Counted from the stretch's first letter, positions 11,422 through 26,012 are shown. The stretch is DNA of 64,000 bases from Candidatus Pacebacteria bacterium GW2011_GWA1_46_10 (GCA_001002135.1 LCLP01000001.1:230274-294273), one strand, 5' to 3'. Numbers and translations are program-made. Notes: a model not told the origin generated them from the letters alone.

Positions 11422-11439
11422 GTATAATAGGGCATTCGA

Positions 11440-11514
11440 TCCCCTGTAGCTCAATGGCAGAGCAGGTCGCTGTTAACGACAAGGTTGGCGGTTCGAGTCC
11501 ACCCGGGGGAGCCA
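11440..11514 (+). tRNA. tRNA-Asn (anticodon GTT), CCA encoded
   Basis: Cloverleaf is recoverable: acceptor tcccctg/cggggga, D arm gctc-aatggca-gagc, anticodon loop cTGTTaa, T loop ttcgagt. There is one mismatch each in the anticodon and T stems. Confidence 0.75.
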
Positions 11515-12972
11515 AAGTTGATTATCGGTATGATTTAAGATTGTGTCGAATGGTTTTATCGCTTCATATCGCACTGTTTTACCCTCTACCCTAAGGTTCG
11601 ATAGTACGAGCTTGATTAACTGTCGTTTTTCCTCAACTTCCGAACTCTTGAACAAATCATAAGCTCGGTTTACTAGCTCCAGTAGGTATTTGCTCGAGAT
11701 GTAATAGTTATCCTCGGCTTCTTGAAGCATACCGAGTTGAGAGTCTAGCCCAGCTATTTGTTCACGGAATGATTGATAGAACTTGTCATACTCATCGTCA
11801 GTAATACGCCCCTTCAGTTTATCAAGGTAAAGATTGTCCATCATTTTAGTAACGCTTTTGTGTTCTGCTGTTAATTTATCGTATTGTTTGTTTTGAAAGT
11901 CCATTTTGTCTTGATGAACATTGTTTAGATTTACCACTACCTGCTCTAAAACCCAGTCGGGGATTTGTAATCGCTTAAATATACTTCCTATTTGCTCGGT
12001 TATATTTTCTTCCCGTAACCATTCAGCCCCGTGTTTGCCGTTATACTGCGTACAGTGGTAATAAACGTGTCCTTTGTGCTTTTCTGGGGTTACAGCGAGC
12101 CCACAATGACCGCATCGTAGTAAGCCCCGATAAGGGTAAGGCTTTCCAGCATATCTAGTTTTTTTCTTATTAAAACCTGCCTTGATTTGCTGTACCTGGT
12201 CATATAAAGTTTTTGCAATAATCGCTGGATACTTATGTTTATATTGCTTATTTTTCCAGGTCATTATTCCGTAATAGAAAGCGTTTTTGAGAATTTTATC
12301 TATCCAACCGTGGGACCACTCAACTGAATATTCGTTTTTTATTTTTGTGCGTAATAAATCCATCGAGAAACTACCAGTCGCATACCACTCATAAGCTTTT
12401 TGAACTACCCGTGATGCAAATTCATCTATAACTATTTCTGTTTTGTCCTTGTTTATTGGTTCTCTTTTGTAACCATAAGGTGGTCGGGCTGGATATGTGC
12501 CCATTCTAAGCATTTGTTCTTGAGCTCGTTTTACGTTATCGCTGATTGCGTCTGAGTAGTACTTGGCTAACCCAAGGCTGATACTGAAATTAAACTTTTC
12601 GACTGCGGATAGCTGGCTATTGATGACTTGTCCATCAGATACAAAATGTATTTCAATTTCATCTCTGAGAGCTTTTTCATAAAGGATGGAAACTCTTTTA
12701 TCAAATATGTTACGAGATAGGCGATCAACCTTATCAAATCCAATGGCTATTTTTTCTTTCTGTGAGAGGATGAAATCAAGAATACCATCAAAGTCATCCC
12801 TCTTATTCTTGTATGCACTTTCATCAAAACTGAACTCCTTTATAATTGGGTACCCTTTATTTTGAAAATATTTTCTTAGTCGCGCAGTTTGGGCTGGTAG
12901 AGAGTTACCAGCATCTTTTTGTTCTTCTGTGCTAACTCGTGAAGTTATAATTGCTTTCATGATTTTTGCCAA
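11473..12972 (-). CDS. Large serine recombinase (integrase)
   Basis: N-terminal resolvase catalytic domain (AIITSRVSTEEQ, GFDKVDRLSRN), a central recombinase domain, and a Cys-rich zinc ribbon (CGHCG...HC). The C-terminal codons run antisense into the tRNA-Asn. Confidence 0.8.
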   Translation of the reverse strand: MAKIMKAIITSRVSTEEQKDAGNSLPAQTARLRKYFQNKGYPIIKEFSFDESAYKNKRDDFDGILDFILSQKEKIAIGFDKVDRLSRNIFDKRVSILYEKALRDEIEIHFVSDGQVINSQLSAVEKFNFSISLGLAKYYSDAISDNVKRAQEQMLRMGTYPARPPYGYKREPINKDKTEIVIDEFASRVVQKAYEWYATGSFSMDLLRTKIKNEYSVEWSHGWIDKILKNAFYYGIMTWKNKQYKHKYPAIIAKTLYDQVQQIKAGFNKKKTRYAGKPYPYRGLLRCGHCGLAVTPEKHKGHVYYHCTQYNGKHGAEWLREENITEQIGSIFKRLQIPDWVLEQVVVNLNNVHQDKMDFQNKQYDKLTAEHKSVTKMMDNLYLDKLKGRITDDEYDKFYQSFREQIAGLDSQLGMLQEAEDNYYISSKYLLELVNRAYDLFKSSEVEEKRQLIKLVLSNLRVEGKTVRYEAIKPFDTILNHTDNQLWLPRVDSNRQPCR

Positions 12973-15900
12973 TGACTTTCAATATAGGATTGTGCCTCGC
13001 TCATGCTTAAAGAGCTAGTGTTATTGCCAGTTCTCACATATAGCTCTTCACTGCCTTGCGATTTTACATAGACTGGATTATCGGATTTTAGAACAGTAAT
13101 AAGACAAACATCTTTCCCTTCGATCATTTCGAAAATCGTACTGAAGTAACGCACTCGATCGGCGCCCATAGTTTCCTTTACAAGCTGAACTAAATGATTT
13201 TCAAACTCATCTCTATTTCCGTTACTCAAAGTCATATAATCTTGTTCTAGTCCAAAGATGCTCCCACCGTCCTCAACACCAATAATGAGTTGTCCACCTT
13301 CAGCATTCATGTATCCAGCAATCGTTTTAAGAATTACCTTTTCCAAGTCTTTGTTTGTTTTTCCTTGTCTAACATCCCATCTTAAAGTTGATTTAAATTC
13401 AAGTTTTTGGCTTTCACCTTTCTTGATGAGCTTGCCAATATCTTCATTTTCCAACTTTCGATAGATACGAGGCATAAGATACTGTTCAAGTTTGTCTCGG
13501 AGTTTTGGATCATTTATGAATTTCATGACCAACTCTTCATTGCGATCCATTCTTTCAACTAGAATATTGATAAGTTCTTCATTGAGCGGATATTTGAATG
13601 CGTCTTTTGGATTGACTTTGGCTTGATTCATTAAAGCCTCGTTGTTGTAAATGTCTTGCTCTATTTGGTCGATAAAAAGCTTATCTGCTTCTGTAAACTC
13701 AGTACCGAGTTTGTCATTGAGTATTTTGATAATTTCAGAAAGAATGGATTTGTCTTCGGTCTCGTAATCTATCGTGCCTGCGTCTTGCAGGGTAGCGAGC
13801 TCAACGGTACCTAGTTTCTCTGGGGTAATACTTCCTTCCTGAATTTTTTGCAGTTTGTAATATTGCAGAGCAATCTCGTCATTAAGATCAAACCGTTCGA
13901 CCGGGTCCTTGGGGAGAGCATTTCTCAGTAAACGTCCAAATACATACAGTTTTTCAAGATCTGAGTCGCTAAAAGGCATTACTTGTGAAAGAAATACATA
14001 CGCTCTAATAAAAGCGGTGAGTTGCTTCTTGAAATCTTCCTGTTTATCCTTTTCTTGCGTTTTGTATCGATCAATAGCTGGGGTGATAATGACATATAGT
14101 TTTTGTTGATCTGCTTTTGTTTGGTATCCAGAGAAGAAAACTTTTGCAAATGACTCTACTTCAGAGAGCCAGAAAACCTTGGAGTCGATCAGACTATTTT
14201 TAAGGTCGTATAAATGATTTGGATCGGTTGACTCATCGATTGAAGTATTCTCATAGTAAGGCTGAAACGCTTCAAGAATTTCACTTGGTTCATTTACAAA
14301 ATCCAAGATAAACGTATCTTCTTTGCCAGGGTGAGTGCGATTGAGTCGTGAAAGGGTTTGGACTGCTTTTACTCCAGATAACTTTTTATCTACAAACATA
14401 GTGTGGAGCAATGGTTCATCGTAACCAGTTTGGTATTTATCAGCTACAAGTAAGATACGATACTCATCAGTAGCAAACTTTTTTGGTAATTCCTTTTCAC
14501 CGAAACCATTTAGCTGAGGTTCAGTGACTTTTTCATCAGTGTCTGGGTCTTTAAGCGCCCCAGAAAAGGCAACCAGCACTCGAATATCGGTGTAGGCTTT
14601 TTCTTTCAAGTAGCGGTTAAATTCCTGATAGTAACGATAGGCGTGTAGGCGAGAGCTGGTCACAACCATTGCTTTTGCTTTACCACCAATTTTCTTCATT
14701 GTTATGTTGCGAAAATGCTCAGCAATAACCTCTGTTTTTTGAGCAAGATTGTGAGGATGCAGAGACAAGAATCTAGCTATGGCTTGATTGGCTTTTTTCT
14801 TATCAAGTTCTGGGTCGTCTTCGATTTTTTTAGTAATTCTGAAGTATGTTTTGTAAGTGGCGTAGCCTTTGAGCACATCAAGAATAAATCCTTCTTCAAT
14901 TGCTTGTCGCATGGAATACAGATGAAAGGGTACAGGCTTACCTTCTACATTTGAAACACCAAAGACTTCGAGCGTTTTGGCTTTGGGTGTGGCTGTGAAA
15001 GCGTAGAAGCTCAGGTTGTCTTGCTTGCCTCGTGCCGTCATGGATTGTCGAATATTATCTTCAACCGTTTCATCATCAGTAGTGTCTTCATTTTCTGCTT
15101 CCTCGAGAGTGTTAGCAGTCAACACTTGTTTCATCTGTTTGGCAGTTTCACCACCTTGTGAGCTGTGTGCTTCGTCAATAATTACCGCATACTTACTGGC
15201 TTGAAACTCACCGATTTGATCAAGCACAAAGGGAAATTTTTGTACCGTAGTGATTATGATCTTAACGCCTGCTCTTAGTGCATCTGCAAGCTGGTTAGAA
15301 TCTTTATCAATTCTCTTAACGACACCTTGCTTGTGATCAAATTGGTAGATAGTATCTTGTAACTGTTTATCCAAGACAATCCTATCGGTGACTACTATGA
15401 CTGACTTGAAAACTGGTTCGTTTTGATCGTCATGCAAACTTGAAAGGCGATACGCCAACCATGCAATGGAATTACTCTTGCCACTTCCTGCGCTATGCTG
15501 AATTAGGTAGTTCTTACCAACACCCTTTGCTTTGGTATCATGAGTAAGCTTGCGGACTACATCGAGTTGATGATAACGAGGGAAGATGATTGTTTCTTTT
15601 GTTTTGATTTTTCCACTAACTCGAATTTCTTGTTGCTCAAAGTGAATGAATTTTTGCAAAATATCCATCCAACTATCTTTGCTCCAAACTTCCTTCCATA
15701 AATAATCAGTTTTGTAACCTTGCTCATTAGGTGGATTGCCTGCTCCGTTTTGGTAGCCCTTATTAAAGGGTAAAAAGGATGTGTCCTCACCTTTTAAGTG
15801 AGTAGTCATGGAAACCTCATTTGGATCAACGGCAAAGTGGACTAAAGCTCTCTTCTTAAATTGAAACAACATTTCGTTGGTATCTCGTGTGTAGATGAAT

Positions 15901-16409
15901 TGTCTTTCAGCATTACTTTTATCTTGTCCTGTAAAAGGATTTTTCAGCTCTACTGTAGCTACAGGAAGTCCATTCAGAAAGAGCACTAAGTCAACTGCTA
16001 AATCTGGATTCTTGACACTAAAATGAACTTGGCGAGTTACGCTCAGGATGTTTTTTTGGTACAACTCAAGTGTTTCAGGGTTGAGATACGACTCAGGCTT
16101 GAAGTAAGCAAGATCTAGGTGAATACCATGATCATCAATACCTTCACGAAGCACTTTGAGCATACCCTTTTTCTCTAGCTCACGCACTAATCTAGAAATG
16201 ATTTTGTCTTCAAGCTGATCCTGATGAATATCAGAGAGCATTTGCCATTTTTCTGGCTGGGTATCGCATAGGAATGAGAGTAGGGTGGTTGTATCAAGAG
16301 CAAGTTGTGGGTCGAAATTATTAGCATTGCCTTGAACATATTCAGATTGGTTGATTAAGCTATCGACGATATTTGATTCGAATGTTTCTTCGTTATAAAT
16401 GTTGCTCAT
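12957..16409 (-). CDS. hsdR: Type I restriction enzyme R subunit fused to a C-terminal AlbA_2/Schlafen-like domain
   Basis: Helicase motif I QHSAGSGKS and DEAH box IIDEAHSS. The C-terminal 200 aa have AlbA_2 hallmarks: LEFKSTL, AGYMNAEGGQLIIGVEDGG and PVYVKSQGSEELYVRTGNNTSSLS. Confidence 0.8.
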   Translation of the reverse strand: MSNIYNEETFESNIVDSLINQSEYVQGNANNFDPQLALDTTTLLSFLCDTQPEKWQMLSDIHQDQLEDKIISRLVRELEKKGMLKVLREGIDDHGIHLDLAYFKPESYLNPETLELYQKNILSVTRQVHFSVKNPDLAVDLVLFLNGLPVATVELKNPFTGQDKSNAERQFIYTRDTNEMLFQFKKRALVHFAVDPNEVSMTTHLKGEDTSFLPFNKGYQNGAGNPPNEQGYKTDYLWKEVWSKDSWMDILQKFIHFEQQEIRVSGKIKTKETIIFPRYHQLDVVRKLTHDTKAKGVGKNYLIQHSAGSGKSNSIAWLAYRLSSLHDDQNEPVFKSVIVVTDRIVLDKQLQDTIYQFDHKQGVVKRIDKDSNQLADALRAGVKIIITTVQKFPFVLDQIGEFQASKYAVIIDEAHSSQGGETAKQMKQVLTANTLEEAENEDTTDDETVEDNIRQSMTARGKQDNLSFYAFTATPKAKTLEVFGVSNVEGKPVPFHLYSMRQAIEEGFILDVLKGYATYKTYFRITKKIEDDPELDKKKANQAIARFLSLHPHNLAQKTEVIAEHFRNITMKKIGGKAKAMVVTSSRLHAYRYYQEFNRYLKEKAYTDIRVLVAFSGALKDPDTDEKVTEPQLNGFGEKELPKKFATDEYRILLVADKYQTGYDEPLLHTMFVDKKLSGVKAVQTLSRLNRTHPGKEDTFILDFVNEPSEILEAFQPYYENTSIDESTDPNHLYDLKNSLIDSKVFWLSEVESFAKVFFSGYQTKADQQKLYVIITPAIDRYKTQEKDKQEDFKKQLTAFIRAYVFLSQVMPFSDSDLEKLYVFGRLLRNALPKDPVERFDLNDEIALQYYKLQKIQEGSITPEKLGTVELATLQDAGTIDYETEDKSILSEIIKILNDKLGTEFTEADKLFIDQIEQDIYNNEALMNQAKVNPKDAFKYPLNEELINILVERMDRNEELVMKFINDPKLRDKLEQYLMPRIYRKLENEDIGKLIKKGESQKLEFKSTLRWDVRQGKTNKDLEKVILKTIAGYMNAEGGQLIIGVEDGGSIFGLEQDYMTLSNGNRDEFENHLVQLVKETMGADRVRYFSTIFEMIEGKDVCLITVLKSDNPVYVKSQGSEELYVRTGNNTSSLSMSEAQSYIESHWQKS

Positions 16410-17761
16410 AGTATTTGATCCTTAATAAATTCTTCTGGGATTGGTTCATCACGAACATCGATTTTTCCAGTAACAGCACTTGAGATGAGTGTTTGGCGGT
16501 ATTCTCGAAGCAGGAGGTTTTGGGATATTAATGTATTTTTCTTGTTTTCAATTTTTTCTACATATCCATCTAGATATTGAGCTATTTTTACTAGCTCTTC
16601 TTCTGAAGGACTTAACAATGGTAGCCATTTTAATTCAGAGAAATTCAAGGTTTGCCTTACACCATTTCCAAGTCCATAAAGCACTTTACCTATATCATAA
16701 GAATGAAGTAGATAGTAATAGTATTGGGAATTAGATAGCTGATTTTTTGGGACAAGCCCAATATATGCTGAGGTTATAATTCCATGTTCTTTTGAAAGTC
16801 CAACTCTCAAACTTTTTTTATCATTTTGAAGGTCAGTTAGTCTTAAAATAATGTATCCCGAAGCTACTACTTGATAGCCCTGAAATGAACTTGGCAGTAA
16901 TCCAAAGTTATTTTCAACATTTCTTTTAATAATTCTTCCATAACTTAATGACAATACATTCTTTTCATTTTGGTTAATATTTTTGGTTTTGTTGTTTGAA
17001 AAGATTGCAAAAAGTGGTTTTATTTCCCAATGCTCAGGAACTTTCCCAATCCACTCAATGCCACTGTCTTTCATTTTGACCGTAGGATCGAGACCTTTAG
17101 TGACTACCTGATTGATGGTGGCTTGTTTTTTTTCTTCAAGGAGCTGGATGAGTTGTTTGTTTTTAGAGATGAGGTTGTCTATGAGGAAGATCTTATAGTT
17201 TAGGTATGAAGCAATTTTCTTCTGCATACTTGTATCGACTGAAATTGGAATGTATAAATTAGAAATAGTGTCTGAATTTAAATTTGCCAGCCCTGTGGTC
17301 GTATTTGAGAATATTTGATACTGCACTCTTGATATTTGTGAATTTAAATACCAATAACCAAATTGGCTGTTCATTTTAGTGTTTGGTCTTATTCTTTGCA
17401 TAAAGTTTGAGTAGCACGTTATTTCAGAGGTAATTCTCTTATCAACTACAGCGGTTTTTCCAATATGTAATTCGCTTCCGCTTGATTTAGTAATAATTAA
17501 ATCACCTATTTCTACTTTACTTTTTCTTATTTCAGCATCTGAGAGATCACGATAAGCAGAATCCTTCAAATTATTCCATTTACCATCGACGGATATTTCT
17601 GTAGACCTTAGTACTCTAGTTCCATTTTCCATGGGATCATTTCCCCATACTCCACCATCATTAGAAGTAATGAGCCACTTGAGTTTGCTTAGATACCAAT
17701 CTTGAGGGATTTCTCCAATCCAAGTTATGCCAGTTTGTTTGTATTTTGAATATGGCTTCAT
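16406..17761 (-). CDS. hsdS: Type I restriction-modification specificity subunit
   Basis: Two-TRD architecture with a central conserved spacer. 4-nt overlaps with both hsdM and hsdR. Confidence 0.75.
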   Translation of the reverse strand: MKPYSKYKQTGITWIGEIPQDWYLSKLKWLITSNDGGVWGNDPMENGTRVLRSTEISVDGKWNNLKDSAYRDLSDAEIRKSKVEIGDLIITKSSGSELHIGKTAVVDKRITSEITCYSNFMQRIRPNTKMNSQFGYWYLNSQISRVQYQIFSNTTTGLANLNSDTISNLYIPISVDTSMQKKIASYLNYKIFLIDNLISKNKQLIQLLEEKKQATINQVVTKGLDPTVKMKDSGIEWIGKVPEHWEIKPLFAIFSNNKTKNINQNEKNVLSLSYGRIIKRNVENNFGLLPSSFQGYQVVASGYIILRLTDLQNDKKSLRVGLSKEHGIITSAYIGLVPKNQLSNSQYYYYLLHSYDIGKVLYGLGNGVRQTLNFSELKWLPLLSPSEEELVKIAQYLDGYVEKIENKKNTLISQNLLLREYRQTLISSAVTGKIDVRDEPIPEEFIKDQIL

Positions 17762-19479
17762 GAGAGTATTTCTTTTAATAACCCATCACTTTCTTTTTCA
17801 AGTTCAAGAATGTCTTTCGTTATTTCCTCGAGTGAACGGAGGGGCTTATATTCATAAAAGTGTTTGGTGAAGTTTATTTCATACCCAACTTTGGTTTGGC
17901 TCTCATCAATCCAGGCATCTGGAACGTGGGGTTTTACCTCACGTTCAAAATACTCATGAATATCCTCTTTGAGTGGCACATTTTCTCTATCTCTCAGGCT
18001 AGTATCAGGCTTGGGGTTACCGCCCTTATCAGTGATTATTTTTCCATTTTTATCTATTTGAGGTCTTTCGATAGCAATCTGATTGTATCCAAAATCTTCA
18101 TTATCAAAAATCTTTGAGAATTTTCCTGACTTGATCTCACCATGCATTTCAACAATCTTGGCTATGTCTTCATCGGCAATTTCATGACGTTTGTTTCCCA
18201 AGCTCTTGCTCATCTTTTTGTAGAAATTAACTGCGTTAATTAGTTGAATTTTGCCTTTTCTTTCATTTGATTTACGATTGGTTAAGATCCAAATGTAGGT
18301 AGAGATTCCAGTGTTGTAAAAAAGTTGATCGGGAAGAGCAATGATCGCTTCTAAAAGGTCGTTTTCAATGATCCATTTACGAATGTCAGATGGACCACTT
18401 CCAGCACTTCCAGTAAACAGAGGTGAGCCGTTGAAGACGATTGATAATCTGCTCCCGCCATTAGACGGCTTCATCTTCGCAAGCATGGTTTGAAGGAATA
18501 AAAGAGAGCCATCGCTGATGCTTGGTAAGCCTGCTCCAAAACGTCCGCCATAACCAAGATCTTCATGTTCGGAAACAACTTCTTTTTGAGCTTTATTCCA
18601 CTTCACTCCAAAGGGAGGGTTGGAGAGCATATAGTCGAACTGTACATTAGATAGTTTATCATCACGCAGGGTATCTCCAAAACGGATATGCTCTGCATTG
18701 TGACCAGTAACCATCATGTCTGATTTACAAATAGCATAAGACTCGGGATTAATTTCTTGCCCGAATAATTCAAGCCGTGCATCTGGGTTTAACTCTTGGA
18801 GGTAATCTTCTGCAACGGTTAACATACCACCAGTTCCACAAGCTGGGTCGTAGATTGTTTTGACAATACTTTTCTTAGATAGAATTTCATTATCGTTTGT
18901 GAAAAGTAGGTTAACCATTAAACGAATGACTTCTCTTGGGGTAAAGTGTTCTCCTGCCGTCTCATTTGAGGATTCGGCGAACTTCCGAATTAACTCTTCA
19001 AAGATGTATCCCATTTCCAAATTAGTAACTTTTTTTGGGTTAAGATCAATTTCTTGGAATTTTTTAACTACTTGATAGAGCAAATCTGCCTTATCGAGCT
19101 TGATAATTTGTTTATCAAACTCAAAGTTTTCTATGATATCTCTAGCATCCTTTGAAAAACCATTTAGATAGTTGCGAAGATTTGGGGCGATATTGCTTGG
19201 GTCAGCAATTAGTTTATTGAAATCAAATTGACTATGATTGTGAAACTTTCTGCCTGCAATCTTGTTCAATAGAATATCTGGATCATCAATCTGTTTGTCC
19301 TTGATAGACCCGTACTGTTTTAGAACTATTTCTTTTGTATCCTCCAAGTCACAGTCAAGTCTACGAAGCACAGTAAGTGGCAAAATAACTTTGCCATAAT
19401 CTGATTGCTTATAATCACCACGGAGCAGATCAGCCACGCTCCAGATAAAGTTTGCGTATTGTGAGATATTAAGTTTCAT
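17758..19479 (-). CDS. hsdM: Type I restriction-modification N6-adenine DNA methyltransferase subunit
   Basis: HsdM N-terminal domain (NFIWSVADLLRGDYKQSDYGKVILPLTVLRRL) and catalytic motif LSNPPFG. Confidence 0.85.
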   Translation of the reverse strand: MKLNISQYANFIWSVADLLRGDYKQSDYGKVILPLTVLRRLDCDLEDTKEIVLKQYGSIKDKQIDDPDILLNKIAGRKFHNHSQFDFNKLIADPSNIAPNLRNYLNGFSKDARDIIENFEFDKQIIKLDKADLLYQVVKKFQEIDLNPKKVTNLEMGYIFEELIRKFAESSNETAGEHFTPREVIRLMVNLLFTNDNEILSKKSIVKTIYDPACGTGGMLTVAEDYLQELNPDARLELFGQEINPESYAICKSDMMVTGHNAEHIRFGDTLRDDKLSNVQFDYMLSNPPFGVKWNKAQKEVVSEHEDLGYGGRFGAGLPSISDGSLLFLQTMLAKMKPSNGGSRLSIVFNGSPLFTGSAGSGPSDIRKWIIENDLLEAIIALPDQLFYNTGISTYIWILTNRKSNERKGKIQLINAVNFYKKMSKSLGNKRHEIADEDIAKIVEMHGEIKSGKFSKIFDNEDFGYNQIAIERPQIDKNGKIITDKGGNPKPDTSLRDRENVPLKEDIHEYFEREVKPHVPDAWIDESQTKVGYEINFTKHFYEYKPLRSLEEITKDILELEKESDGLLKEILS

Positions 19480-19670
19480 TAATTTTTCCTTTCAGATAGA
19501 AAAGACTCTAAGTCGTGCTTGGATATTCGATGTTGTTTACCCGCCTTAACAGCGTGTAATTTTTTTGCCTGCACCCATCTATAAACAGTTAGATAGGCTA
19601 CTTTTAGCATTTTGGAGATTTCTTTAATGGAGTAATATTGCTCTTCTATCATATTAGTTATATTTATCAT
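19479..19670 (-). CDS. Excisionase-family / MerR-like HTH DNA-binding protein
   Basis: 63 aa with HTH segment IKEISKMLKVAYLTVYRWVQAKKLHAVKAGKQHRISKHDLESFL. It overlaps the hsdM start. Confidence 0.6.
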   Translation of the reverse strand: MINITNMIEEQYYSIKEISKMLKVAYLTVYRWVQAKKLHAVKAGKQHRISKHDLESFLSERKN

Positions 19671-20817
19671 TATTTAACATTGTATCTTGAAAATCAACTA
19701 GTTTTAGTGGTTCAAAATTGGTCAAATGCTCACGAATTACTTCAAGTGGGCTTTTGGAAGGGGGCAATTTGACGGTTTTTGCCTCTGCAATGAGTCTATA
19801 CCAACTCCTTTGACTGTATCCACTAAACATAGTTCTAAGCTCACGAGGCGTTATATCGTTGAAAATTTGTTTTAGTCCATAGAGCTGTACGGTTTTTTTT
19901 AGTCCAAGGCGAGAATTATTAATAATAAGGTCTGCCAATAAGGATTTTGGACTTGTTGGTTTGTAATCAAATAGCGGTAGTCGTTTACTTTCAACTTCAT
20001 CGAGATAATGTAGTAAGACTTGTTGAGAAATGCTTGGGCTAAAAAGGTTCTTATAAGTAAGCTCTGATTGAATGCCAAGCGTGCGGAATAACTGCTTTAT
20101 TTTCTGCCGTTTATTGAGCCGTACTTCCATTCGTAAGACCTCTAGCTGTTTTCTTTTCTCAAATGTATCAAAAAGGCTAAGTTGTAAGGCATTATCTCTT
20201 TCTACCGCTCGTTTCTCACTTTTCTTTGCCATTTCGAGGTCTTTTATCTTATCGTAAAAAGCTACTTCATATGAGTTGGCATGCCATTTGTAGCTGTGTC
20301 CATCATTGCGGTAGTCTGTTTGGTTTATATCGAGTGAAAGTTTTATATTTGCTTCATTAATCTTGCTAATAAGGTAATGAGGTGTAGACCCATCTGTTAG
20401 AGGTATATTTTTAGAATAATGAATAGCTGACACTGGTGCATTAAGTAAAAATTTTTCCCAAACCATCACGCCCATATCTTTAAGACGGGATTTTAATAGT
20501 TTGGTAACAGGATCAAAGTCGTCAATCGACAACTCGTCAAAATTATTGCCAAAAAGCAGTTTAGGCAGAGATAATTCTATTTTAAGTGTTGCTTCGCGCC
20601 TGCCTGTGTGGTTAAAACGGTTCGTTAAGGTAAGTCGTGGCTTATAGATACCACTTTGTAATTCTCGCTTAGTGGGGTTTTGTTTTGCAGGAATATATCC
20701 ACGACTACCCATAGATGAGTTTTCATCAAGTATTAGCCTAGCAGATGGTTCAAACCTATCTGGTTCTTTAATGTAATACATACCTTTACTTAGTGTTAAA
20801 ACTACTGTGTCTAGCAT
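19654..20817 (-). CDS. Hypothetical island protein (possible replication or mobilisation function, unproven)
   Basis: 387-aa ORF overlapping its neighbours within the same operon. No clear motif. Confidence 0.35.
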   Translation of the reverse strand: MLDTVVLTLSKGMYYIKEPDRFEPSARLILDENSSMGSRGYIPAKQNPTKRELQSGIYKPRLTLTNRFNHTGRREATLKIELSLPKLLFGNNFDELSIDDFDPVTKLLKSRLKDMGVMVWEKFLLNAPVSAIHYSKNIPLTDGSTPHYLISKINEANIKLSLDINQTDYRNDGHSYKWHANSYEVAFYDKIKDLEMAKKSEKRAVERDNALQLSLFDTFEKRKQLEVLRMEVRLNKRQKIKQLFRTLGIQSELTYKNLFSPSISQQVLLHYLDEVESKRLPLFDYKPTSPKSLLADLIINNSRLGLKKTVQLYGLKQIFNDITPRELRTMFSGYSQRSWYRLIAEAKTVKLPPSKSPLEVIREHLTNFEPLKLVDFQDTMLNNDKYN

Positions 20818-21082
20818 ACATTTTGGTTACATTTTCAAACTTTGAAATGATTACTTTTTCTATTTTTTCCGCAATATTTCGGTTAATGGGATGAAAGATA
20901 TTAAAATTACCGCTCGGACCCTTGCGAGTGGGGTAGGTCAATCGATACCCACCTTGCGGTCTGGTATAGATACCAATGGACCCAAAATAAAAGCTGTCGT
21001 TATAAACGAAGCTCGCAAAACCCACCAAGCCATCTCTTGCTTTGATTGGTGTTATTTGAACTTCGCTTAATATGTCTTTCAT
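20786..21082 (-). CDS. SpoVG-like nucleic-acid-binding protein
   Basis: Resembles SpoVG: N-terminal VQITPIKARDGLVGFASFVYNDSFYF, YPTRKGPSGNF and the HPIN motif. Confidence 0.5.
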   Translation of the reverse strand: MKDILSEVQITPIKARDGLVGFASFVYNDSFYFGSIGIYTRPQGGYRLTYPTRKGPSGNFNIFHPINRNIAEKIEKVIISKFENVTKMYARHSSFNTK

Positions 21083-21417
21083 ATTTTCCCCTTAGGTTGG
21101 TTTTCAATAGATAATCCATCGATGCATCGTTCCAACTCTTTATCACTCCAATTTTCAAGTGATTCCCAACCCATCATCAATAAATCCTCTAAAACCTCTG
21201 TATTTTGAGCGTGACAAATATCACAGACCTTGTCATTAATGATGATTTGGTATGCTCTATCACGGCTTACTTGTTTACCAAATGCTTGGATTTTTACACC
21301 CATCTTTTCTTTACGTGCTCGAATGCCTTCTTTTACCCTCTTACTAAATAGTCTGTGATAATCAGTTGTCAACAAATCCAGAAGTTGAGTCTGAAAACTC
21401 TTGTTTATTTTTTTCAT
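21079..21417 (-). CDS. Hypothetical protein; first gene of the minus-strand island operon
   Basis: 112-aa ORF with a palindrome and a conserved 5' motif upstream. Confidence 0.4.
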   Translation of the reverse strand: MKKINKSFQTQLLDLLTTDYHRLFSKRVKEGIRARKEKMGVKIQAFGKQVSRDRAYQIIINDKVCDICHAQNTEVLEDLLMMGWESLENWSDKELERCIDGLSIENQPKGKI

Positions 21418-21429
21418 TTGTTACTTTCT

Positions 21430-21444
21430 TTGACCGTTGGTCAA
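21430..21444. promoter_or_regulatory. 15-bp palindrome ttgaccgttggtcaa in the 5' UTR of the 21417 gene
   Basis: Perfect inverted repeat about 14 nt upstream of the start codon (minus orientation). Confidence 0.4.
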
Positions 21445-21617
21445 TACTTATTAGAATTGAGAAAAAATCAGTCAACCTTGCCATATCATCAACATCAAAG
21501 CCTTCCGTACTCCTTTCAGGGCTTTGCAACTTTTTGAGCTGGGAATTGGTAAAGCTCGACCGCATTAAGTCGAGGATATAAAAAGGAAGGTTGTCCCAAG
21601 TGGGTCAACTAGTTGTC

Positions 21618-23192
21618 CTACTTTTTGTGGAACAAGAAATCGGAGTTTATATTAACCGTCATCATCGAGTAAATAAAGAAGTTTTGCTTGCCAGTCTTGC
21701 TAGCAATTACAGCATTGAGGTCCCTACAAAGATAGTAAATTTTCCGTTGAGCTTGTTTGGTATCATAATCGTTTGAACCACTGATTGCTTCATAAAGTTC
21801 GACTGATTGCCATTCTTGTTTTGCGATGTTTTTGTTTTTTGACAATATTTTGAGTAATTCTGTGCGATTTGTGTTACTTTTCAACTTAATAGTCTTGTTT
21901 GCCACTGTTAATGTGTTGGTTCTAGTATCGAAACTCCAAGTATCACTAGAAGACTCCACTACTGTTGGTTGTTTTATTGTCGACTCATCAGGAACTTGTT
22001 TTCGTTCGTGTTCATCAAATTTGAGTAATAATTCTTTGGCATATAAATGAACACGCTCCATGTAATTTTTGTAAGTTTCGACATGGAACTCACGAATGTA
22101 GTGATTTGGGTCATGTGGTTTAGTTAGTATTGTATTCAACTCATCAGATAGCATTCCTGCCGATAATGCAGTAAGTGGTTTGCCACTCTCCATGTACTGC
22201 TTGTAAACACTCTCATGATCTATGTAGAGCCTATGAAATGTAAATAGCTTGTCCCAGCTGAACCACGGTCTTGTTTCCCGCAGACGTTCTTGCTTTAGTT
22301 TTTCTTGTTTGTGCCCCTCATAACTTGGTGAAAAAATATACTTCCTCACAAAGCCGTCAGGAGTTAGTTCAGCGTACTGTTGGGCAATTTTTAGGTGTTC
22401 GGTATTTTTTGTTGCCACTAATCCTCGAATAATATCCTCAACTTCACCAATTCGACCAGACAGTGGTCCCTCAGTGCTTTCTATTGTTCCTTTTTCGTAA
22501 GAGTGGTAGTTCTTTATTGCCCCAGTAATAATTGCATTTTTTATGCCTGCTTTTGAACAATATACAGAGAGTTTCTGAAATGCCTTGTCTATTTCAGAAT
22601 AAGCCAGCTTTTCGAGTTGTTTTAATTTAGTTGTTTCGGTGTTACCTAAATCGTTAAGAGCACGAACGACGCCCCTAAGCAAGCCCTCTCTAAAATAGCC
22701 ATCAACATATTCGAACAGGTTGCTAAAAAAGAACTTCGGTTCAGCTGTTTCTTTTACTCTTTTGTAAATTGCGTCGATTTGTTCTACTAATAAGGAGACT
22801 TCTGAAACTGGGTTATCTAATTGAGAAAACTCTGGTGGATTCTCTTTGCCCTCGTATATGTTCCTTTGGTACTCATTTAGATATGTAGTGACGTCGCATA
22901 TCTTTTGATACTTAGTGTAAACGGTCTCAAACGTAGAAGGGTAGATGTCAAGGTAGAGCACGTCGTTAGTACTAACTGGTGGTTCAAACGGGCTTTCTCG
23001 CACTCGTAGAGCACCTAATTCCTGCAACTTGAAAATGATACCCTCACGTCTGTCCCTTGGAATAATGCCTGCACCAGCAACGTGTGGCATTTTGTATTTC
23101 ACTGGCTTATCATTTTGAGTTGCGAGTGTTTCCTCTTTGATGTCTTGGAGTATTTCCCAAACCTGCTGATTAAACTTTTCTTCTGGCGTCAT
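21618..23192 (-). CDS. Hypothetical 524-aa protein with no recognisable domain
   Basis: Long uninterrupted AT-rich ORF, divergent from the AlbA_2/HD gene pair. Confidence 0.5.
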   Translation of the reverse strand: MTPEEKFNQQVWEILQDIKEETLATQNDKPVKYKMPHVAGAGIIPRDRREGIIFKLQELGALRVRESPFEPPVSTNDVLYLDIYPSTFETVYTKYQKICDVTTYLNEYQRNIYEGKENPPEFSQLDNPVSEVSLLVEQIDAIYKRVKETAEPKFFFSNLFEYVDGYFREGLLRGVVRALNDLGNTETTKLKQLEKLAYSEIDKAFQKLSVYCSKAGIKNAIITGAIKNYHSYEKGTIESTEGPLSGRIGEVEDIIRGLVATKNTEHLKIAQQYAELTPDGFVRKYIFSPSYEGHKQEKLKQERLRETRPWFSWDKLFTFHRLYIDHESVYKQYMESGKPLTALSAGMLSDELNTILTKPHDPNHYIREFHVETYKNYMERVHLYAKELLLKFDEHERKQVPDESTIKQPTVVESSSDTWSFDTRTNTLTVANKTIKLKSNTNRTELLKILSKNKNIAKQEWQSVELYEAISGSNDYDTKQAQRKIYYLCRDLNAVIASKTGKQNFFIYSMMTVNINSDFLFHKK

Positions 23193-23260
23193 AGTTCGTT
23201 ACATTTTCAAAACTTATGTTTGTTTATCATATTTTATCAGTTTAACGATAGAATAGTGTT

Positions 23261-24712
23261 ATGGGAGACAAGGCAAAAAAAGCTATAGAAACTCGAAGTA
23301 TTTCACTCGATGAAGTGATTGCCATCCTTTCGTCTAACAAACCTGAAGAATTGATTGGAGTAGAAGAAACGGCATATTTTGAGTGTAGAGGGGTTTCCTA
23401 TTTAACTTCTTTTGGTGAACAATCAGACATAGAAAGACATAAGTTTAATTTGGTTAAAGACGTGGTTTCGATTGCCAATTCTGGTGGTGGGGTTATCTGC
23501 ATCGGTGTCAAAACTTTAGAAAAGTCGAATGAAAAAACAGAGTATATTACCGAGATTGCACCAGTTCCTAAAGACCATATTCAAATGAAGAGTTGGGAAG
23601 ACATACTTTTTGGTTATAGTATTCCGAAATTTAAGAGACAGTGGCTTAAATATGGATACAGTGGCACAGATAAAAAAGTCTTTTGGATAAAGATTGCGGA
23701 CATTCGGGAGACTGCGGAATACCCAGTATTGGTGAGTTTATCTAAGAAATATGAGGAGGGTGTATCAACCGTTAAAGAGAACTTTGGTTTGTACTTTAGA
23801 GACCGTTCAGTCAATGTTCCATATTCTCCTGAAAAACTGCACACATTTATTCAGGCAGGGTTTAGAGGGAATGACAATGGTCAAGCGAGATACCTTAAAT
23901 CTATGCTAGAAGCGATTGACACAAAAATAGACCTACTTTCAAAAAAAGTGAGTAAAGAAGACGCAAAACAAATAAAACTTGAATTAAGAGAGGAGATTGC
24001 CAATTACGTTATTCAAAAGCTCGATAGCTCAAAAGGTCTTTTCTACCTTTTTGCTTTTCCTGTCAAAGATGCAGTAATCAAAGAGTTCTGGGAGCAAGGC
24101 GATAAATCTGTTTATCACCTTATCAAGAACACGCCACATTTAAGAGAGACGGGTTGGGATTTACGTGTAGCTCAGTCTGAGTATCCATATCCCAATAAAA
24201 ATAAATGGGAAATTACAAATGGTAATCGTAAGCTCACGAGCTTTGATATTCGAGGTAGATTGTTTAGTGCTGGTTCAATAGACGGGTTCTTAAATTGGGG
24301 GGTTAGAGATTATAAAACAGACGAAAAACACAACATAGTAAATGCATTTGCTCTAACAGAATATATTGATAGTTTTTTCCAAACCTTGGAAGTATTCAAA
24401 ACGGTTTTTGATATAAAAAGTGATTATGAGGTTGAAGCTGGGTTTTTGGAGGCTGGAAGCAACACTAAACTCTTATTTCCTCCTCATATTATAAGTATTT
24501 TCCACGCTTTGACAGAAACCATCAAACAGGAAAAATGGGATGTAGACGTTAGGCTGGAAGACGATAAGCACCCCTCTTATTTTGCTGGACAATTAATACA
24601 AGAAATTTATGTAAGTGGATTTGGTTATGTGAGCCATCCAGATTATCCTTATCTTACTAAAGATGATAAAGGGTATAAGGTTAATGAGGCTTTGTATATC
24701 AGACAAAAATAG
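23261..24712 (+). CDS. Protein with an N-terminal AlbA_2/Schlafen-like domain and an unknown C-terminal domain
   Basis: VKDVVSIANSGGGVICIGVKTLEKSNEK matches the AlbA_2 G-G-x-I-x-I-G-V block. Upstream an E/EF-rich segment (VEETAYFECRGVSY) is present. Confidence 0.5.
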   Translation: MGDKAKKAIETRSISLDEVIAILSSNKPEELIGVEETAYFECRGVSYLTSFGEQSDIERHKFNLVKDVVSIANSGGGVICIGVKTLEKSNEKTEYITEIAPVPKDHIQMKSWEDILFGYSIPKFKRQWLKYGYSGTDKKVFWIKIADIRETAEYPVLVSLSKKYEEGVSTVKENFGLYFRDRSVNVPYSPEKLHTFIQAGFRGNDNGQARYLKSMLEAIDTKIDLLSKKVSKEDAKQIKLELREEIANYVIQKLDSSKGLFYLFAFPVKDAVIKEFWEQGDKSVYHLIKNTPHLRETGWDLRVAQSEYPYPNKNKWEITNGNRKLTSFDIRGRLFSAGSIDGFLNWGVRDYKTDEKHNIVNAFALTEYIDSFFQTLEVFKTVFDIKSDYEVEAGFLEAGSNTKLLFPPHIISIFHALTETIKQEKWDVDVRLEDDKHPSYFAGQLIQEIYVSGFGYVSHPDYPYLTKDDKGYKVNEALYIRQK

Positions 24713-24843
24713 CTTTAGGTAATCGCAAGATTAAAGGTGTCGAATACTGTTTGGATATTTTGTAAACTAAATCCAAACTCTATCTCTCGGTTCTTAAATG
24801 CGTCAACCAGGGGGAGCTTAATATATTTTGATATAATTGATAA

Positions 24844-25467
24844 ATGGCATTTGATGAGGTTCTTTCTCCTGTTCTTCAGACAGATTTGAGGTCTAAGTAT
24901 CACCCCGTTCTTGTCGCTTATCAAAATAATGAGTGGATAAGAGAGCAAATGGCATTGCTCGAAAGTCACGGCGATCTAGATCATGCGGTACGGGTTGCTT
25001 TTTTGGCAGCTGAGTTAGCAAAGCATGTGGAAATGAACGATGATGAGATATTGATTATTGCCAAAGCAGGGTTGTTGCACGATCTAGGAAAATTACAAAT
25101 ACCGCCTGAAATTTTTAAAAAAGTACAACTTACAGAAAAAGAGAGAGCTTTAGTTGATGAGCACGTTCGAGCTGGCTTTGAGTTGGTGAAGGAGCGTTTC
25201 CCGTTTGTAGCAAAAATAATGGTTGCTCATCACGAGTTTCAAGCTAGAAGGTACCCGAGAAAAAATGACCGAGATCCTGTTGGCACGAGACTGAGGGAAT
25301 TGCAGAGATTATTAGCAATCGCCGACCAGACAGACGCTCTGTTGAGTGCCAGGTCATACAAAAAAAGATGGCCAATCTATAAAGTGAGAGAATACCTTAA
25401 TGATTTATTTGATGATCACCACTTAATCGATTTTTCTATTGCTAAAAGAATCAGCATAGTAGATTAA
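24844..25467 (+). CDS. HD-domain metal-dependent phosphohydrolase
   Basis: H...HD...H...D pattern in HAVRVAFLAAELAKH, GLLHDLGK, AHHE and DQTDAL. Confidence 0.65.
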   Translation: MAFDEVLSPVLQTDLRSKYHPVLVAYQNNEWIREQMALLESHGDLDHAVRVAFLAAELAKHVEMNDDEILIIAKAGLLHDLGKLQIPPEIFKKVQLTEKERALVDEHVRAGFELVKERFPFVAKIMVAHHEFQARRYPRKNDRDPVGTRLRELQRLLAIADQTDALLSARSYKKRWPIYKVREYLNDLFDDHHLIDFSIAKRISIVD

Positions 25468-25473
25468 ATTTTT

Positions 25474-25830
25474 TTAAATCTTTTTTCCGGCAATTTTTTG
25501 TCGGAGGATTTCAAATTCGGGTATTTCTGCGTCCAGATTCTGAGCGACCACAAGTAAGTTATCAATGGCGTTCTGAGCGTCTTCCCAGAGTCCGGCAGCT
25601 GCATAAGTTTGGGCAAGATGGTAGTTGAACCAGAGATCACGTTCTGGGCCGGCCCAGGCAGAGTCAGCTTCTTGTTGGAGTTGATGGATAAACTCATCTA
25701 GAGCTTGGCGAAGCTCGTTTTCAGGTTTTTGTTCACGCACTGTTTGGATGAATATCTCCCTGCTTGGTTTGGCCGTTGCCGTCTCGGCAATAACTGAGTC
25801 ATATGTGGCTGGCTTTGTCTCTTTGTCCAT
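25474..25830 (-). CDS. Hypothetical small helical protein
   Basis: 118-aa ORF convergent with the HD gene. Confidence 0.35.
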   Translation of the reverse strand: MDKETKPATYDSVIAETATAKPSREIFIQTVREQKPENELRQALDEFIHQLQQEADSAWAGPERDLWFNYHLAQTYAAAGLWEDAQNAIDNLLVVAQNLDAEIPEFEILRQKIAGKKI

Positions 25831-25943
25831 AGGTTTACTTTACAATAAAAGATTAAGAAATCATAGAAAAATAGTCAAATTCTAGCAATCGTTCTTAAAA
25901 ACGACTTGGATTTGTGATACTTAAGATGGTGTTCGGATAAAAT

Positions 25944-25965
25944 CCTCCTGGGGGGAGCCAAGGGT
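25944..25965 (+). repeat. Degenerate copy of the tRNA-Asn 3' end (tcctcctggggggagccaag); candidate attR
   Basis: The tRNA 3' end at 11496..11516 reads gagtccacccgggggagccaaag. The candidate at 25941..25970 reads aatcctcctggggggagccaagggttaaag. About 17 of 22 positions match, with one indel. Confidence 0.35.
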
Positions 25966-26012
25966 TAAAGTTTCCTTGTAGTCTGTATAAAACCTTCTTA
26001 TAATGTAACTAA

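What the first reader, a model, noticed from the sequence alone, without database searches (positions are those of the whole stretch)
11440..25970. AT-rich integrative island at tRNA-Asn carrying a serine recombinase and a Type I R-M system
The large serine recombinase ORF runs antisense into the 3' half of tRNA-Asn(GTT), the classic geometry of a tRNA-targeting integrative element. From there the DNA becomes visibly AT-richer, and an overlapping minus-strand operon follows (unknown proteins, SpoVG-like, unknown 387-aa protein, excisionase-HTH, hsdM, hsdS, hsdR, int). A degenerate copy of the tRNA 3' end, tcctcctggggggagcca, lies in an intergenic gap at 25944..25965 and is a candidate decayed attR.
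Basis: partly seen in the sequence, partly recalled or inferred. Interest (0 to 1): 0.55.

Follow-up and report, generated by a model that had tools for sequence, protein, structure and literature searches.

The report
Mobile restriction island at tRNA-Asn
A 13.3-kb mobile DNA element carrying a restriction-modification system sits at the end of a tRNA-Asn gene in a groundwater Patescibacteria genome. It belongs to a widespread family I could not find described, whose serine integrase gene is cut by its own insertion site, so the enzyme's tail changes when the element integrates.

Summary
tRNA-Asn(GTT) lies at 11440-11514. A large serine recombinase (LSR) gene (11473-12960, minus strand) ends inside the tRNA's 3' half. 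GC falls from about 0.48 to 0.375. An overlapping minus-strand operon carries a complete Type I R-M system.

The proposed right end at 25944-25965 is wrong. Comparison with 23 homologous element ends places the junction at 24817. There a roughly 90-nt conserved block ends in GGGGAGC, the same core as the tRNA acceptor 3' strand, and similarity then stops. The element spans 11513-24817 (13.3 kb) and looks intact.

It is one member of a Patescibacteria-wide family. The shared backbone is SpoVG-like protein, a 387-aa protein, HTH_17 and the LSR. Tandem arrays also occur at tRNA-Asn.

Joining the two ends (attP) extends the LSR reading frame by about 31 conserved codons, encoded at 24718-24816. 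Variation there falls mainly on third codon positions (45:27:123). A 61%-identical LSR carries this tail contiguously on a circular 12.6-kb element. Integration therefore swaps the LSR C-terminus. Tyrosine integrases (Mx8, SSV) are known to do this, but I found no report for serine integrases. tRNA targeting by an LSR is also unusual.

The parts
11440..11514 (+). tRNA-Asn(GTT), the integration target. Host-derived up to GGGGGAGC (11505-11512). The terminal CA (11513-11514) is supplied by the element.
   Evidence: ARAGORN, Rfam RF00005 at 55.8 bits, comparison with 21 relatives' tRNA-Asn genes.
11505..11560 (.). attL: core GGGGGAGC (11505-11512) followed by the element's P' arm (CAAAGTTGATTATCGGTATGATTTAAGATTGTGTCGAA).
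   Evidence: The P' arm is conserved next to tRNA-Asn in the window, L025, L027, L054, L107, L110 and L111.
11473..12960 (-). Large serine recombinase, integrated (short) form, 495 aa. The catalytic-serine motif RVST is at residues 8-11. The last 13 codons and the stop are antisense to the tRNA.
   Evidence: Pfam Resolvase, Recombinase and Zn_ribbon_recom. NCBIfam XisF and CcrA/B hits fall below their cut-offs. Translation. 2016 homologs at E<=1e-30.
12957..16409 (-). hsdR (1150 aa), a Type I restriction subunit with a C-terminal Schlafen/AlbA_2 domain. Its stop overlaps the LSR start (ATGA).
   Evidence: Pfam, PADLOC REase_I at 3e-40, sequence.
16406..17761 (-). hsdS (451 aa), specificity subunit.
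   Evidence: Pfam Methylase_S, PADLOC Specificity_I at 1e-87.
17758..19479 (-). hsdM (573 aa), methyltransferase subunit.
   Evidence: Pfam HsdM_N and N6_Mtase, PADLOC MTase_I at 3e-273.
19479..19670 (-). HTH_17 (excisionase-type helix-turn-helix) small protein. This backbone gene marks the inner edge of the cargo slot.
   Evidence: Pfam PF12728 at 5e-14, PHROG 'excisionase and transcriptional regulator'. It holds the same position in L107, L110, L111, L117 and L135.
19654..20817 (-). 387-aa backbone protein of unknown function.
   Evidence: 2041 homologs, all listed ones unnamed or 'hypothetical', none with a precomputed Pfam domain, and every source name that gives a taxon except one is Patescibacteria. 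AF2 model pLDDT 82.5. No PDB match. BFVD matches to unnamed viral proteins at E about 1e-7.
20786..21082 (-). SpoVG-like protein (98 aa), a backbone gene.
   Evidence: Pfam PF04026 at 1.8e-8. Conserved next to the 387-aa gene in all related elements.
21079..21417 (-). 112-aa protein. Its C-terminal ~70 residues are 64-71% identical to a small protein encoded just upstream of the SpoVG-like gene in three related elements.
   Evidence: tblastn hits at 64-71% in L117, L121 and L126. No family match.
21618..23192 (-). 524-aa protein in the distal, variable part. First gene of the minus-strand operon.
   Evidence: Weak homologs in the same slot of L107, L117, L121 and L126, and on the circular element L112. 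No family match.
23261..24712 (+). 483-aa protein (weak AlbA_2/Schlafen match). It occupies the attR-proximal divergent slot that holds Mrr or other genes in related elements.
   Evidence: Pfam AlbA_2 at 3.5e-4, below the cut-off. Slot comparison.
24715..24816 (-). Detached 3' end of the LSR gene (33 codons plus stop). After the LP codons of the shared core it adds the 31-residue tail LVDAFKNREIEFGFSLQNIQTVFDTFNLAIT, which joins the LSR only in the excised circle (516-aa long form).
   Evidence: ORF reconstruction across attP in 4 elements. tblastn. 19 unique sequences with variation 45:27:123 by codon position. Homologous tail contiguous with the LSR on circular L112-L114.
24730..24817 (.). 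attR: conserved P arm ending in the core GGGGGAGC (24810-24817). Host DNA starts at 24818.
   Evidence: Conserved in 24 element ends, with similarity lost immediately after GGGGAGC, or after GGGGAGCCA in several ends.
25941..25965 (+). It lies outside the element and may be a relic of an older insertion.
   Evidence: Best non-tRNA match in the window to the relatives' tRNA-Asn 3' end, p about 0.013. The adjacent match to the attR block is not significant, p about 0.22.

Best explanation
Window 11513-24817 is an intact 13.3-kb integrative element. It was inserted by its own large serine recombinase (LSR) at the extreme 3' end of tRNA-Asn(GTT). The crossover lies within the 7-8-bp block GGGGAGC of the acceptor 3' strand, so the tRNA stays whole and the element supplies the encoded CA of the CCA end.

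The element belongs to a Patescibacteria-wide family. The fixed backbone is small ORFs, SpoVG-like protein, 387-aa protein, HTH_17 and the LSR. A cargo slot between HTH_17 and the LSR is co-transcribed with the LSR and often overlaps its start. In this window the slot holds Type I hsdMSR. A second, distal variable slot here holds the 524-aa and 483-aa genes.

The attP core lies inside the LSR gene. In the excised circle the LSR is 516 aa and carries a conserved 31-residue tail. Integration leaves that tail at the far end of the element (24718-24816) and replaces it with a short, host-dependent peptide read from the tRNA antisense strand.

Shown: the ends, the family, the cargo pattern, reading-frame continuity across attP, coding-type conservation of the tail, and a related circular element carrying the contiguous long form. 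Inferred: that the long form is the integration-proficient enzyme, that the swap helps set directionality or expression, and that the R-M cargo both defends the host and stabilises the element.
For: Geometry and domains.

Same element at tRNA-Asn in other genomes. L025 has an LSR at 58% identity, the 387-aa protein at 54% and the SpoVG-like protein at 56%. L027, L107-L109, L111 and L135 also carry it. The site is LSR-free in the closest relatives L021-L023, where synteny upstream of the tRNA breaks exactly at the tRNA.

Right junction: 24 ends are conserved up to GGGGAGC and then diverge.

Cargo slot contents: Type I here; C5 methyltransferase plus SacI-like enzyme in L107; an Eco57I-like type IIG enzyme plus a HARE-HTH/PDDEXK protein in L111; HNH nuclease plus Dam plus Dcm in L025; Type III beside an internally deleted LSR in L054.

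attP lies inside the LSR gene. The frame stays open across the reconstructed junction in 4 of 4 elements and encodes a conserved tail. Across 19 unique tails, variation by codon position is 45:27:123. The tRNA-encoded replacement tails are not conserved: R, G, D, RVDSNRQPCR, RVDSNHGPFA.

P0229, a 516-aa LSR, carries the tail contiguously on a 12,648-bp molecule. Three independent assemblies recovered it as permuted or terminally overlapping contigs.

Tandem arrays at the same tRNA appear in L135, L122 and L126.

Composition.
Against: No empty site or excised circle of this particular element was found. All 24 or more same-species contigs carry it. The attP form of this subfamily was absent from the one JGI metagenome scan and from IMG/VR.

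The exact crossover dinucleotide cannot be read from sequence, and the two inverted-repeat pairs in attP give dyad centres 4 nt apart (my reading).

AF2 gives the tail pLDDT below 50, so there is no structural support for a role.

L025 and L027, the more distant LSRs, showed no tail within the DNA held.

The functions of the 387-aa, 112-aa, 524-aa and 483-aa proteins are unknown.
Confidence: 0.8

Rival explanations
1. One reading: the island runs to 25965, and the degenerate tRNA 3' copy there is the decayed attR of this element.
For: 25941-25960 is the best match in the window to the relatives' tRNA-Asn 3' end, p about 0.013, and it is intergenic. Low GC continues past it.
Against: In 24 homologous ends, conservation stops at the position equivalent to 24817, not 1.1 kb further on. 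The HD-domain gene and the 118-aa ORF between 24818 and 25965 have no counterpart in any related element. The neighbouring similarity to the attR block is at chance level.
Confidence: 0.07
2. The conserved ~90-nt distal block is conserved as DNA (a recombinase-binding P arm or regulatory site) or as an independent small gene. On this view it is not the C-terminus of the LSR, and the open frame across attP is incidental.
For: LSR P arms are expected to be conserved. In the integrated state gene callers sometimes call small ORFs over the block, such as the 84-aa ORF 24715-24969 here and proteins P0241-P0249. AF2 does not fold the tail.
Against: The three-nucleotide periodicity of variation (45:27:123) fits coding constraint in exactly the LSR frame. 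The small ORFs have unrelated N-termini taken from host flanks. About 90 nt is longer than one arm of the <50-bp sites reported for LSRs such as Bxb1 (PMC1470463). A natural circular relative encodes the LSR and the tail as one protein.
Confidence: 0.12
3. A domesticated, immobile chromosomal R-M locus. On this view the LSR is a remnant or serves another role, such as inverting hsdS, rather than moving the element.
For: The island is fixed in every contig of this species across many samples. Decayed versions exist elsewhere, in L054, L119 and L127.
Against: The LSR is full length with its catalytic motif, and the tail ORF is open. There is only one hsdS, and no inverted repeats longer than chance. 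The same backbone carries different cargo at the same site in many genomes, which implies recent mobility.
Confidence: 0.1
4. A prophage or phage satellite.
For: The layout is integrase next to a tRNA, with an HTH_17 excisionase-like gene. The 387-aa model matches unnamed viral proteins in BFVD.
Against: No capsid, terminase, portal or tail family appears in PHROGs or Pfam for any gene. There were no hits in the phage records or in IMG/VR. The elements are only 7-13 kb.
Confidence: 0.05

Closest known systems
Large serine recombinase integrases of phages and mobile elements (phiC31, Bxb1, A118/LI, TP901-1; TnpX; CcrAB of SCC elements; XisF)
   Same: The domain architecture is Resolvase, Recombinase and zinc ribbon with a coiled-coil. 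There are weak NCBIfam matches to XisF and CcrA/B. The identity block between the att sites is short. The enzyme is encoded at one end of the element.
   Different: The target is a tRNA gene. [quoted passage not shown] The attP core lies inside the recombinase's own coding sequence. The hosts are Patescibacteria.
tRNA-targeting genomic islands with tyrosine integrases (P4-type, as catalogued by Islander)
   Same: The integrase gene abuts the 3' end of a tRNA gene, the tRNA is kept functional, tandem arrays form at the site, and the cargo includes defence genes.
   Different: The enzyme family is serine, not tyrosine. Only 7-8 bp of the tRNA is repeated at the far end, rather than a displaced tRNA fragment.
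Mx8 IntP and SSV-type ('suicidal') integrases, whose attP lies within the int gene
   Same: The integrase ORF extends across attP, so integration alters the gene product. In Mx8 this is a C-terminal change; in SSV the gene is split (PMC4383910, refs 24 and 25; PMC7253208).
   Different: Those are tyrosine recombinases. Here about 94% of the LSR stays intact and only a 31-residue tail, lying beyond the canonical fold, is exchanged.
Integration-dependent immunity of mycobacteriophages (attP inside the repressor gene)
   Same: Integration changes the C-terminus of a regulatory protein and so acts as a genetic switch. This rests on my knowledge of Broussard et al. 2013; the system is mentioned in PMC4929511.
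   Different: There the protein affected is the repressor and the integrase is a tyrosine recombinase. Here the recombinase itself is remodelled. No degradation tag has been shown.
Mobile R-M systems and SCC-type cassettes that carry hsd genes
   Same: An R-M system rides as cargo on a recombinase-mobilised cassette. Post-segregational stabilisation is plausible (established idea, from my own knowledge).
   Different: In this family a dedicated slot directly upstream of the recombinase, in the same operon, holds a different R-M type in different members.

Membership tests
Large serine recombinase (LSR) integrase | N-terminal resolvase catalytic domain with the catalytic serine | tested here: met
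   PF00239 at 6.9e-16, residues 8-158. The motif RVSTEEQ has Ser10 invariant in 36 homologs.
Large serine recombinase (LSR) integrase | Recombinase domain and zinc-ribbon domain with a coiled-coil insert | tested here: met
   PF07508 and PF13408. The AF2 model of homolog P0229 shows long helices at 335-452 after the zinc ribbon.
Large serine recombinase (LSR) integrase | Short att sites with a 2-bp crossover and no long direct repeat | tested here: inconclusive
   attL and attR share only GGGGAGC, 7-8 bp. The crossover dinucleotide cannot be determined from sequence.
Large serine recombinase (LSR) integrase | Catalyses attP x attB integration | not testable with these tools
   Support is only indirect: the same backbone at the same site in many genomes, and a circular relative.
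Type I restriction-modification system | HsdR, HsdM and HsdS all present and full length | tested here: met
   Pfam. PADLOC REase_I at 3e-40, MTase_I at 3e-273, Specificity_I at 1e-87. The ORFs are contiguous and overlapping.
tRNA-gene genomic island (Islander definition) | Intact tDNA at one end and a displaced tDNA fragment at the other | tested here: not met
   Only the 7-8-bp core recurs at the true end, 24810-24817. Related elements show no tRNA 3' repeat. The 25.95-kb tRNA-like piece lies outside the element.
tRNA-gene genomic island (Islander definition) | Tyrosine-family integrase | tested here: not met
   The integrase is a serine recombinase. No tyrosine recombinase lies in 11.4-29 kb.
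Prophage or phage satellite | Virion, packaging or hijacking genes | tested here: not met
   PHROGs gave only HTH/excisionase hits. No phage-record or IMG/VR match.
Integrative conjugative or mobilisable element | Relaxase, with or without a type IV secretion system or coupling protein | tested here: inconclusive
   No relaxase or T4SS family was found. The 387-aa protein has motifs that resemble HUH motifs I-III by eye, but hhalign against microvirus Vp4 was negative, and there were no PDB or Pfam hits.
Integrases whose gene spans attP (Mx8 and SSV type) | The int ORF crosses the attP core, so integration alters the product | tested here: met
   This is a functional analogy only, because those enzymes are tyrosine recombinases.

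The most novel reading that the evidence does not exclude
The C-terminal swap may be a built-in directionality or commitment switch for a serine integrase. On this reading, only the excised circle encodes the full 516-aa enzyme, whose conserved 31-residue tail is needed for integration or for its control. The chromosomal copy makes a tail-less enzyme with different activity: excision-only with a partner such as the HTH_17 protein, or largely inert. That would be a serine-recombinase counterpart of the Mx8 IntP/IntX and SSV 'suicidal' integrases, operating at a tRNA gene in ultra-small CPR bacteria. It would also offer a natural design for state-dependent LSR tools.
Probability: 0.35. Interest if true: 0.78.

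Novelty: new variant of a known kind. Interest (0 to 1): 0.62.

Why it matters
LSRs are widely used in genome engineering, and their directionality control is an active question. A natural LSR lineage whose gene is remodelled by its own integration would be a new regulatory layout to test.

The lineage also targets a tRNA gene, a target class said in 2014 to be unknown for serine integrases (PMC4383910).

For CPR/Patescibacteria biology, the family is a concrete and abundant vehicle. The 387-aa backbone protein has about 2000 homologs at E<=1e-5 and the LSR about 2000 at E<=1e-30. The vehicle shuttles interchangeable R-M systems between genomes and builds tandem arrays at a single tRNA-Asn locus. 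Little is known about gene flow and defence turnover in these organisms.

The precisely defined attL, attR, attP and attB sequences make the system directly testable.

Tried and rejected
- **Direct repeats of the tRNA 3' end.** In the window the only matches were chance-level 11-mers. Related elements had no repeat either.
- **Inverted copy of the attL zone at the far end.** Nothing above chance.
- **Empty site in the same species.** Exact look-ups of the LSR, the 133-aa neighbour and the cupin returned only island-bearing contigs.
- **Downstream synteny with the closest relatives.** There is none beyond the tRNA, so the right end could not be set this way.
- **The 25.87-25.96-kb stretch as a second attR.** The match to the attR block is not significant, p about 0.22. 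No attR relic lies beside the window's cupin gene.
- **attP form of this subfamily.** Not in the 20 JGI hits. No IMG/VR hits. The tail-only protein search found only small flank-derived ORFs.
- **AF2 model of a natural long-form LSR.** The tail has pLDDT below 50, which is uninformative.
- **hsdS shufflon idea.** There is one hsdS and there are no meaningful inverted repeats.


Full report
**Observation check**

ARAGORN and Rfam both place tRNA-Asn(GTT) at 11440-11514. The ORF 11473-12972 on the minus strand most plausibly starts at the ATG at 12960, giving 495 aa beginning MKAIITSRVSTEEQ. It carries Resolvase, Recombinase and Zn_ribbon_recom domains, so it is a large serine recombinase, or LSR. 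Its last 13 codons (WLPRVDSNRQPCR) and its TAA stop are the antisense of the tRNA 3' half. The stop is the antisense of the anticodon loop.

Upstream, on the same strand and with overlapping stops and starts, lie hsdR, hsdS, hsdM, an HTH_17 protein, a 387-aa protein, a SpoVG-like protein, a 112-aa protein and a 524-aa protein. hsdR is 1150 aa with a C-terminal Schlafen/AlbA_2 domain, and its stop overlaps the LSR start as ATGA. PADLOC confirms a complete Type I system.

GC is 0.375 over 11513-24817 against 0.47-0.49 in the flanks. The tetranucleotide distance to the rest of the window is about threefold higher.

**Host and relatives**

Exact-protein look-ups show that the window belongs to a groundwater Patescibacteria population, named by one source as Candidatus Pacebacteria bacterium GW2011_GWB1_47_8. 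Every contig of that population carries the island, so no empty site exists in the same species.

A scan of species-representative genomes with RpoD found relatives with RpoD identity of 72-90% in which rpoD followed by tRNA-Asn is conserved. In the three closest (L021-L023), about 9 kb upstream is syntenic with the window. That synteny ends exactly at the tRNA, and no LSR follows.

In L025 and L027 an LSR (58% and 50% identical) again ends inside tRNA-Asn. Homologs of the 387-aa and SpoVG-like proteins follow it. More distant LSRs (22-29% identical) overlap tRNA-Asn in L024, L032 and L055. The site is a hot spot for several LSR lineages.

**The real right end**

No tRNA 3' repeat marks the far end, either here or in relatives. 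This is expected for serine recombinases.

I collected contexts of close homologs of the 387-aa protein: L107-L109, L110 and L111. Four complete elements share a block of about 90 nt at their distal end:

...AATCCAAACTCTATCTCTCGGTTCTTAAATGCGT(C/T)(A/T)ACCA(G/A)GGGGAGC

After it the sequences are unrelated. In the window this block is 24730-24817, in the gap between the 483-aa gene (which ends at 24712) and the HD-domain gene (which starts at 24844). A pattern scan of JGI metagenomes added 20 more ends with the same behaviour.

The terminal GGGGAGC equals the acceptor 3' strand of tRNA-Asn at attL (11506-12). That is the only sequence shared by the two ends, so the crossover lies in it.

The element is therefore 11513-24817, or 13,305 bp. 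The reconstructed sites are:
- attB: ...GGTTCGAGTCCACCCGGGGGAGC|TTAATATATTTTG...
- attP: ...GCGTCAACCAGGGGGAGC|CAAAGTTGATTATCGG...

About half of the tRNA-Asn genes without an adjacent LSR lack an encoded CCA, whereas every tRNA beside an intact LSR of this close family ends in GCCA followed by the conserved P' arm. This fits the element supplying the CA.

25941-25960 (AATCCTCCTGGGGGGAGCCA) is the best non-tRNA match in the window to the relatives' tRNA-Asn 3' end, and it matches that better than the window's own tRNA. Shuffling gives p about 0.013 over 17.6 kb.

However, it lies 1.1 kb outside the family-defined junction. The adjacent similarity to the attR block is at chance level, p about 0.22. 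The two genes in between have no counterpart in related elements. It may be debris of an earlier insertion:
- Tandem arrays do occur at this tRNA (L135, L122, L126).
- Low GC persists to about 29.05 kb.
- The cupin (27734-28093) has homologs at 72% identity inside a related element next to its attR in L119/L124.
- The 145-aa protein (29083-29520) has homologs at 67-75% inside related elements in L115 and L133/L134.

This remains unproven, and no attR relic lies beside the window's cupin gene.

**Family architecture**

Across the window, L025, L027, L107, L110, L111, L117 and L135 the gene order is:

attR, an attR-proximal gene convergent with the LSR tail, variable distal genes, small ORFs, SpoVG-like, 387-aa, HTH_17, cargo slot, LSR, attL/tRNA-Asn.

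The cargo slot holds:
- Type I hsdMSR in the window.
- A C5 methyltransferase plus a SacI-like enzyme in L107.
- An Eco57I-like type IIG enzyme plus a HARE-HTH/PDDEXK protein in L111.
- An HNH nuclease plus Dam plus Dcm in L025.
- An unknown 328-aa protein in L110.
- Type III Mod and Res next to an internally deleted LSR in L054.

The cargo's last gene usually overlaps the LSR start. The distal slot holds Mrr plus DUF3800 (L110), a Hypoth_Ymh protein (L111), and here the 524-aa and AlbA_2-like 483-aa proteins. No virion, conjugation or recognised replication gene is present.

**The LSR gene spans attP**

Joining each element's distal block to its attL-proximal sequence keeps the LSR frame open in all four complete elements. 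It adds a conserved tail, LV(D/N)AFKNREIEFGFSLQNIQTVF(D/E)TF..., which gives 516 aa in the window. The tail is encoded at 24718-24816 on the minus strand, and its stop lies 2 nt from the convergent 483-aa gene.

Among 19 unique distal blocks, variation by codon position in that frame is 45:27:123. Eighteen of the 19 stay open for at least 26 codons. This is the signature of protein-coding constraint, not of a DNA site.

The peptides that replace the tail after integration depend on the host tRNA and are not conserved: R, G, D, RVDSNRQPCR, RVDSNHGPFA. Small ORFs that gene callers place over the block take unrelated N-termini from host flanks.

A natural long form exists. P0229 (516 aa, 61% identical) ends ...WSPLVDAFRNGKVEFTISLSHIQSTF.... 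It is encoded on a 12,648-bp molecule recovered as permuted or terminally overlapping contigs in three independent assemblies (a 141-bp overlap, a 30-bp overlap, and a 100%-identical permutation). No tRNA is present on it.

In tandem arrays the upstream LSR reads into the next element's distal block. This creates hybrid tails, as in P0122/P0157 and P0243. It also shows that a second LSR lineage, the 525-aa enzyme of L135, keeps a conserved tail at its distal end.

**Mechanism**

Shown: the ends, the core, the family, the cargo pattern and the split reading frame.

Inferred:
- (a) The circle expresses the 516-aa enzyme, which integrates at the tRNA-Asn 3' end.
- (b) Integration detaches the tail, so the chromosomal copy makes a tail-less enzyme.
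- (c) This difference contributes to directionality or commitment, possibly together with the conserved HTH_17 protein.
- (d) The R-M cargo is expressed with the LSR. It protects the host and penalises loss of the element.

AF2 places the tail beyond the last confidently folded elements (strands 453-467, helix 471-482) but models it at pLDDT below 50. Structure therefore neither supports nor contradicts a role.

**Comparison with known systems**

The enzyme is a bona fide LSR by domains. [quoted passage not shown] SSV-type "suicidal" integrases are reviewed in PMC7253208.

Full-text searches found no paper combining Patescibacteria, serine recombinases and integrative elements. They also found no serine integrase with attP inside its gene. 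The searched library is incomplete, so this is absence of evidence only.

I therefore rate the element a new variant of a known kind. It is an LSR integrative element with an unusual target class, a self-spanning attP and a dedicated R-M cargo slot, in an under-studied phylum.

**Unknowns**

- The 387-aa backbone protein gives a confident model (pLDDT 82.5, pTM 0.83). It has no PDB match and only unnamed viral matches in BFVD.
- By eye, its conserved RLTLT, IHYSK and FYDK segments resemble HUH motifs I-III. A profile comparison with a microvirus Vp4 was negative.
- No excision product of this particular element was seen.

Noticed in passing
window 44675-49161 (low-GC patch, about 42-50 kb): A second compositionally atypical region (GC 0.415) encodes a Type III R-M pair: Mod of 586 aa (N6_N4_Mtase) and Res of 909 aa (ResIII). 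A NYN-domain gene lies nearby at 41824-42432. No integrase was looked for there.
   Followed up: partly
L111 16798-17025: The tRNA-Asn targeted by the related element in GCA_018830045.1 is interrupted in its anticodon loop by a group I intron (Rfam RF00028, 89.7 bits). ARAGORN therefore missed the tRNA. Some LSR homologs (P0123, P0140, P0180) have long read-through tails that may reflect such tRNAs.
   Followed up: partly
window 24818-29520: The stretch after the element stays at GC about 0.40-0.41 up to ~29.05 kb. It contains a cupin (27734-28093), and a 145-aa gene (29083-29520) follows just beyond, where GC has already risen to ~0.51. Homologs of both, at 67-75% identity, lie inside related elements next to their attR (L119/L124, L115, L133/L134). 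The cupin also lies downstream of decayed LSR remnants in L046. This may be debris of older tandem insertions, but no att relic was found beside the cupin.
   Followed up: partly
window 11487-11503 (tRNA-Asn T arm): The window's T stem, GGCGG/CCACC, has a central C-A mismatch. All relatives examined have perfectly paired T stems. Because CCACC lacks the TAG found in the relatives' antisense T stem, the LSR short form here reads 9 codons further than in L025 or L027.
   Followed up: no
window 11020-11421: A low-GC 133-aa coiled-coil ORF sits between rpoD and tRNA-Asn. It is absent from the closest relatives, where the tRNA follows rpoD within about 30 nt.
   Followed up: no
window 20823-20839 and 23195-23211: A 17-nt repeat (TTGGTTACATTTTCAAA and TTCGTTACATTTTCAAA, 16 of 17 identical) lies just upstream of the starts of the 387-aa and 524-aa genes. 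It could be a shared regulatory site or a chance match.
   Followed up: no
L054 5424-5715: An LSR reduced to its last ~85 and first ~12 codons is fused next to a Type III R-M beside tRNA-Asn. This is an immobilised relic of the same element family. L119/L124 and L127 are further decayed examples.
   Followed up: partly
L005 (same species), equivalent to window ~22098-22140, with scattered differences over 11434-22098: One Rifle-sample contig differs from the window by 30 mismatches and 6 gaps, and its hsdM and hsdS are called as 853 aa plus 182 aa. This could be strain variation or assembly error in the R-M genes. It was not resolved.
   Followed up: no
window 12957-16409 (C-terminal residues 999-1133 of HsdR): HsdR carries a C-terminal Schlafen/AlbA_2 domain. 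The attR-proximal 483-aa protein has a weak match to the same domain.
   Followed up: no
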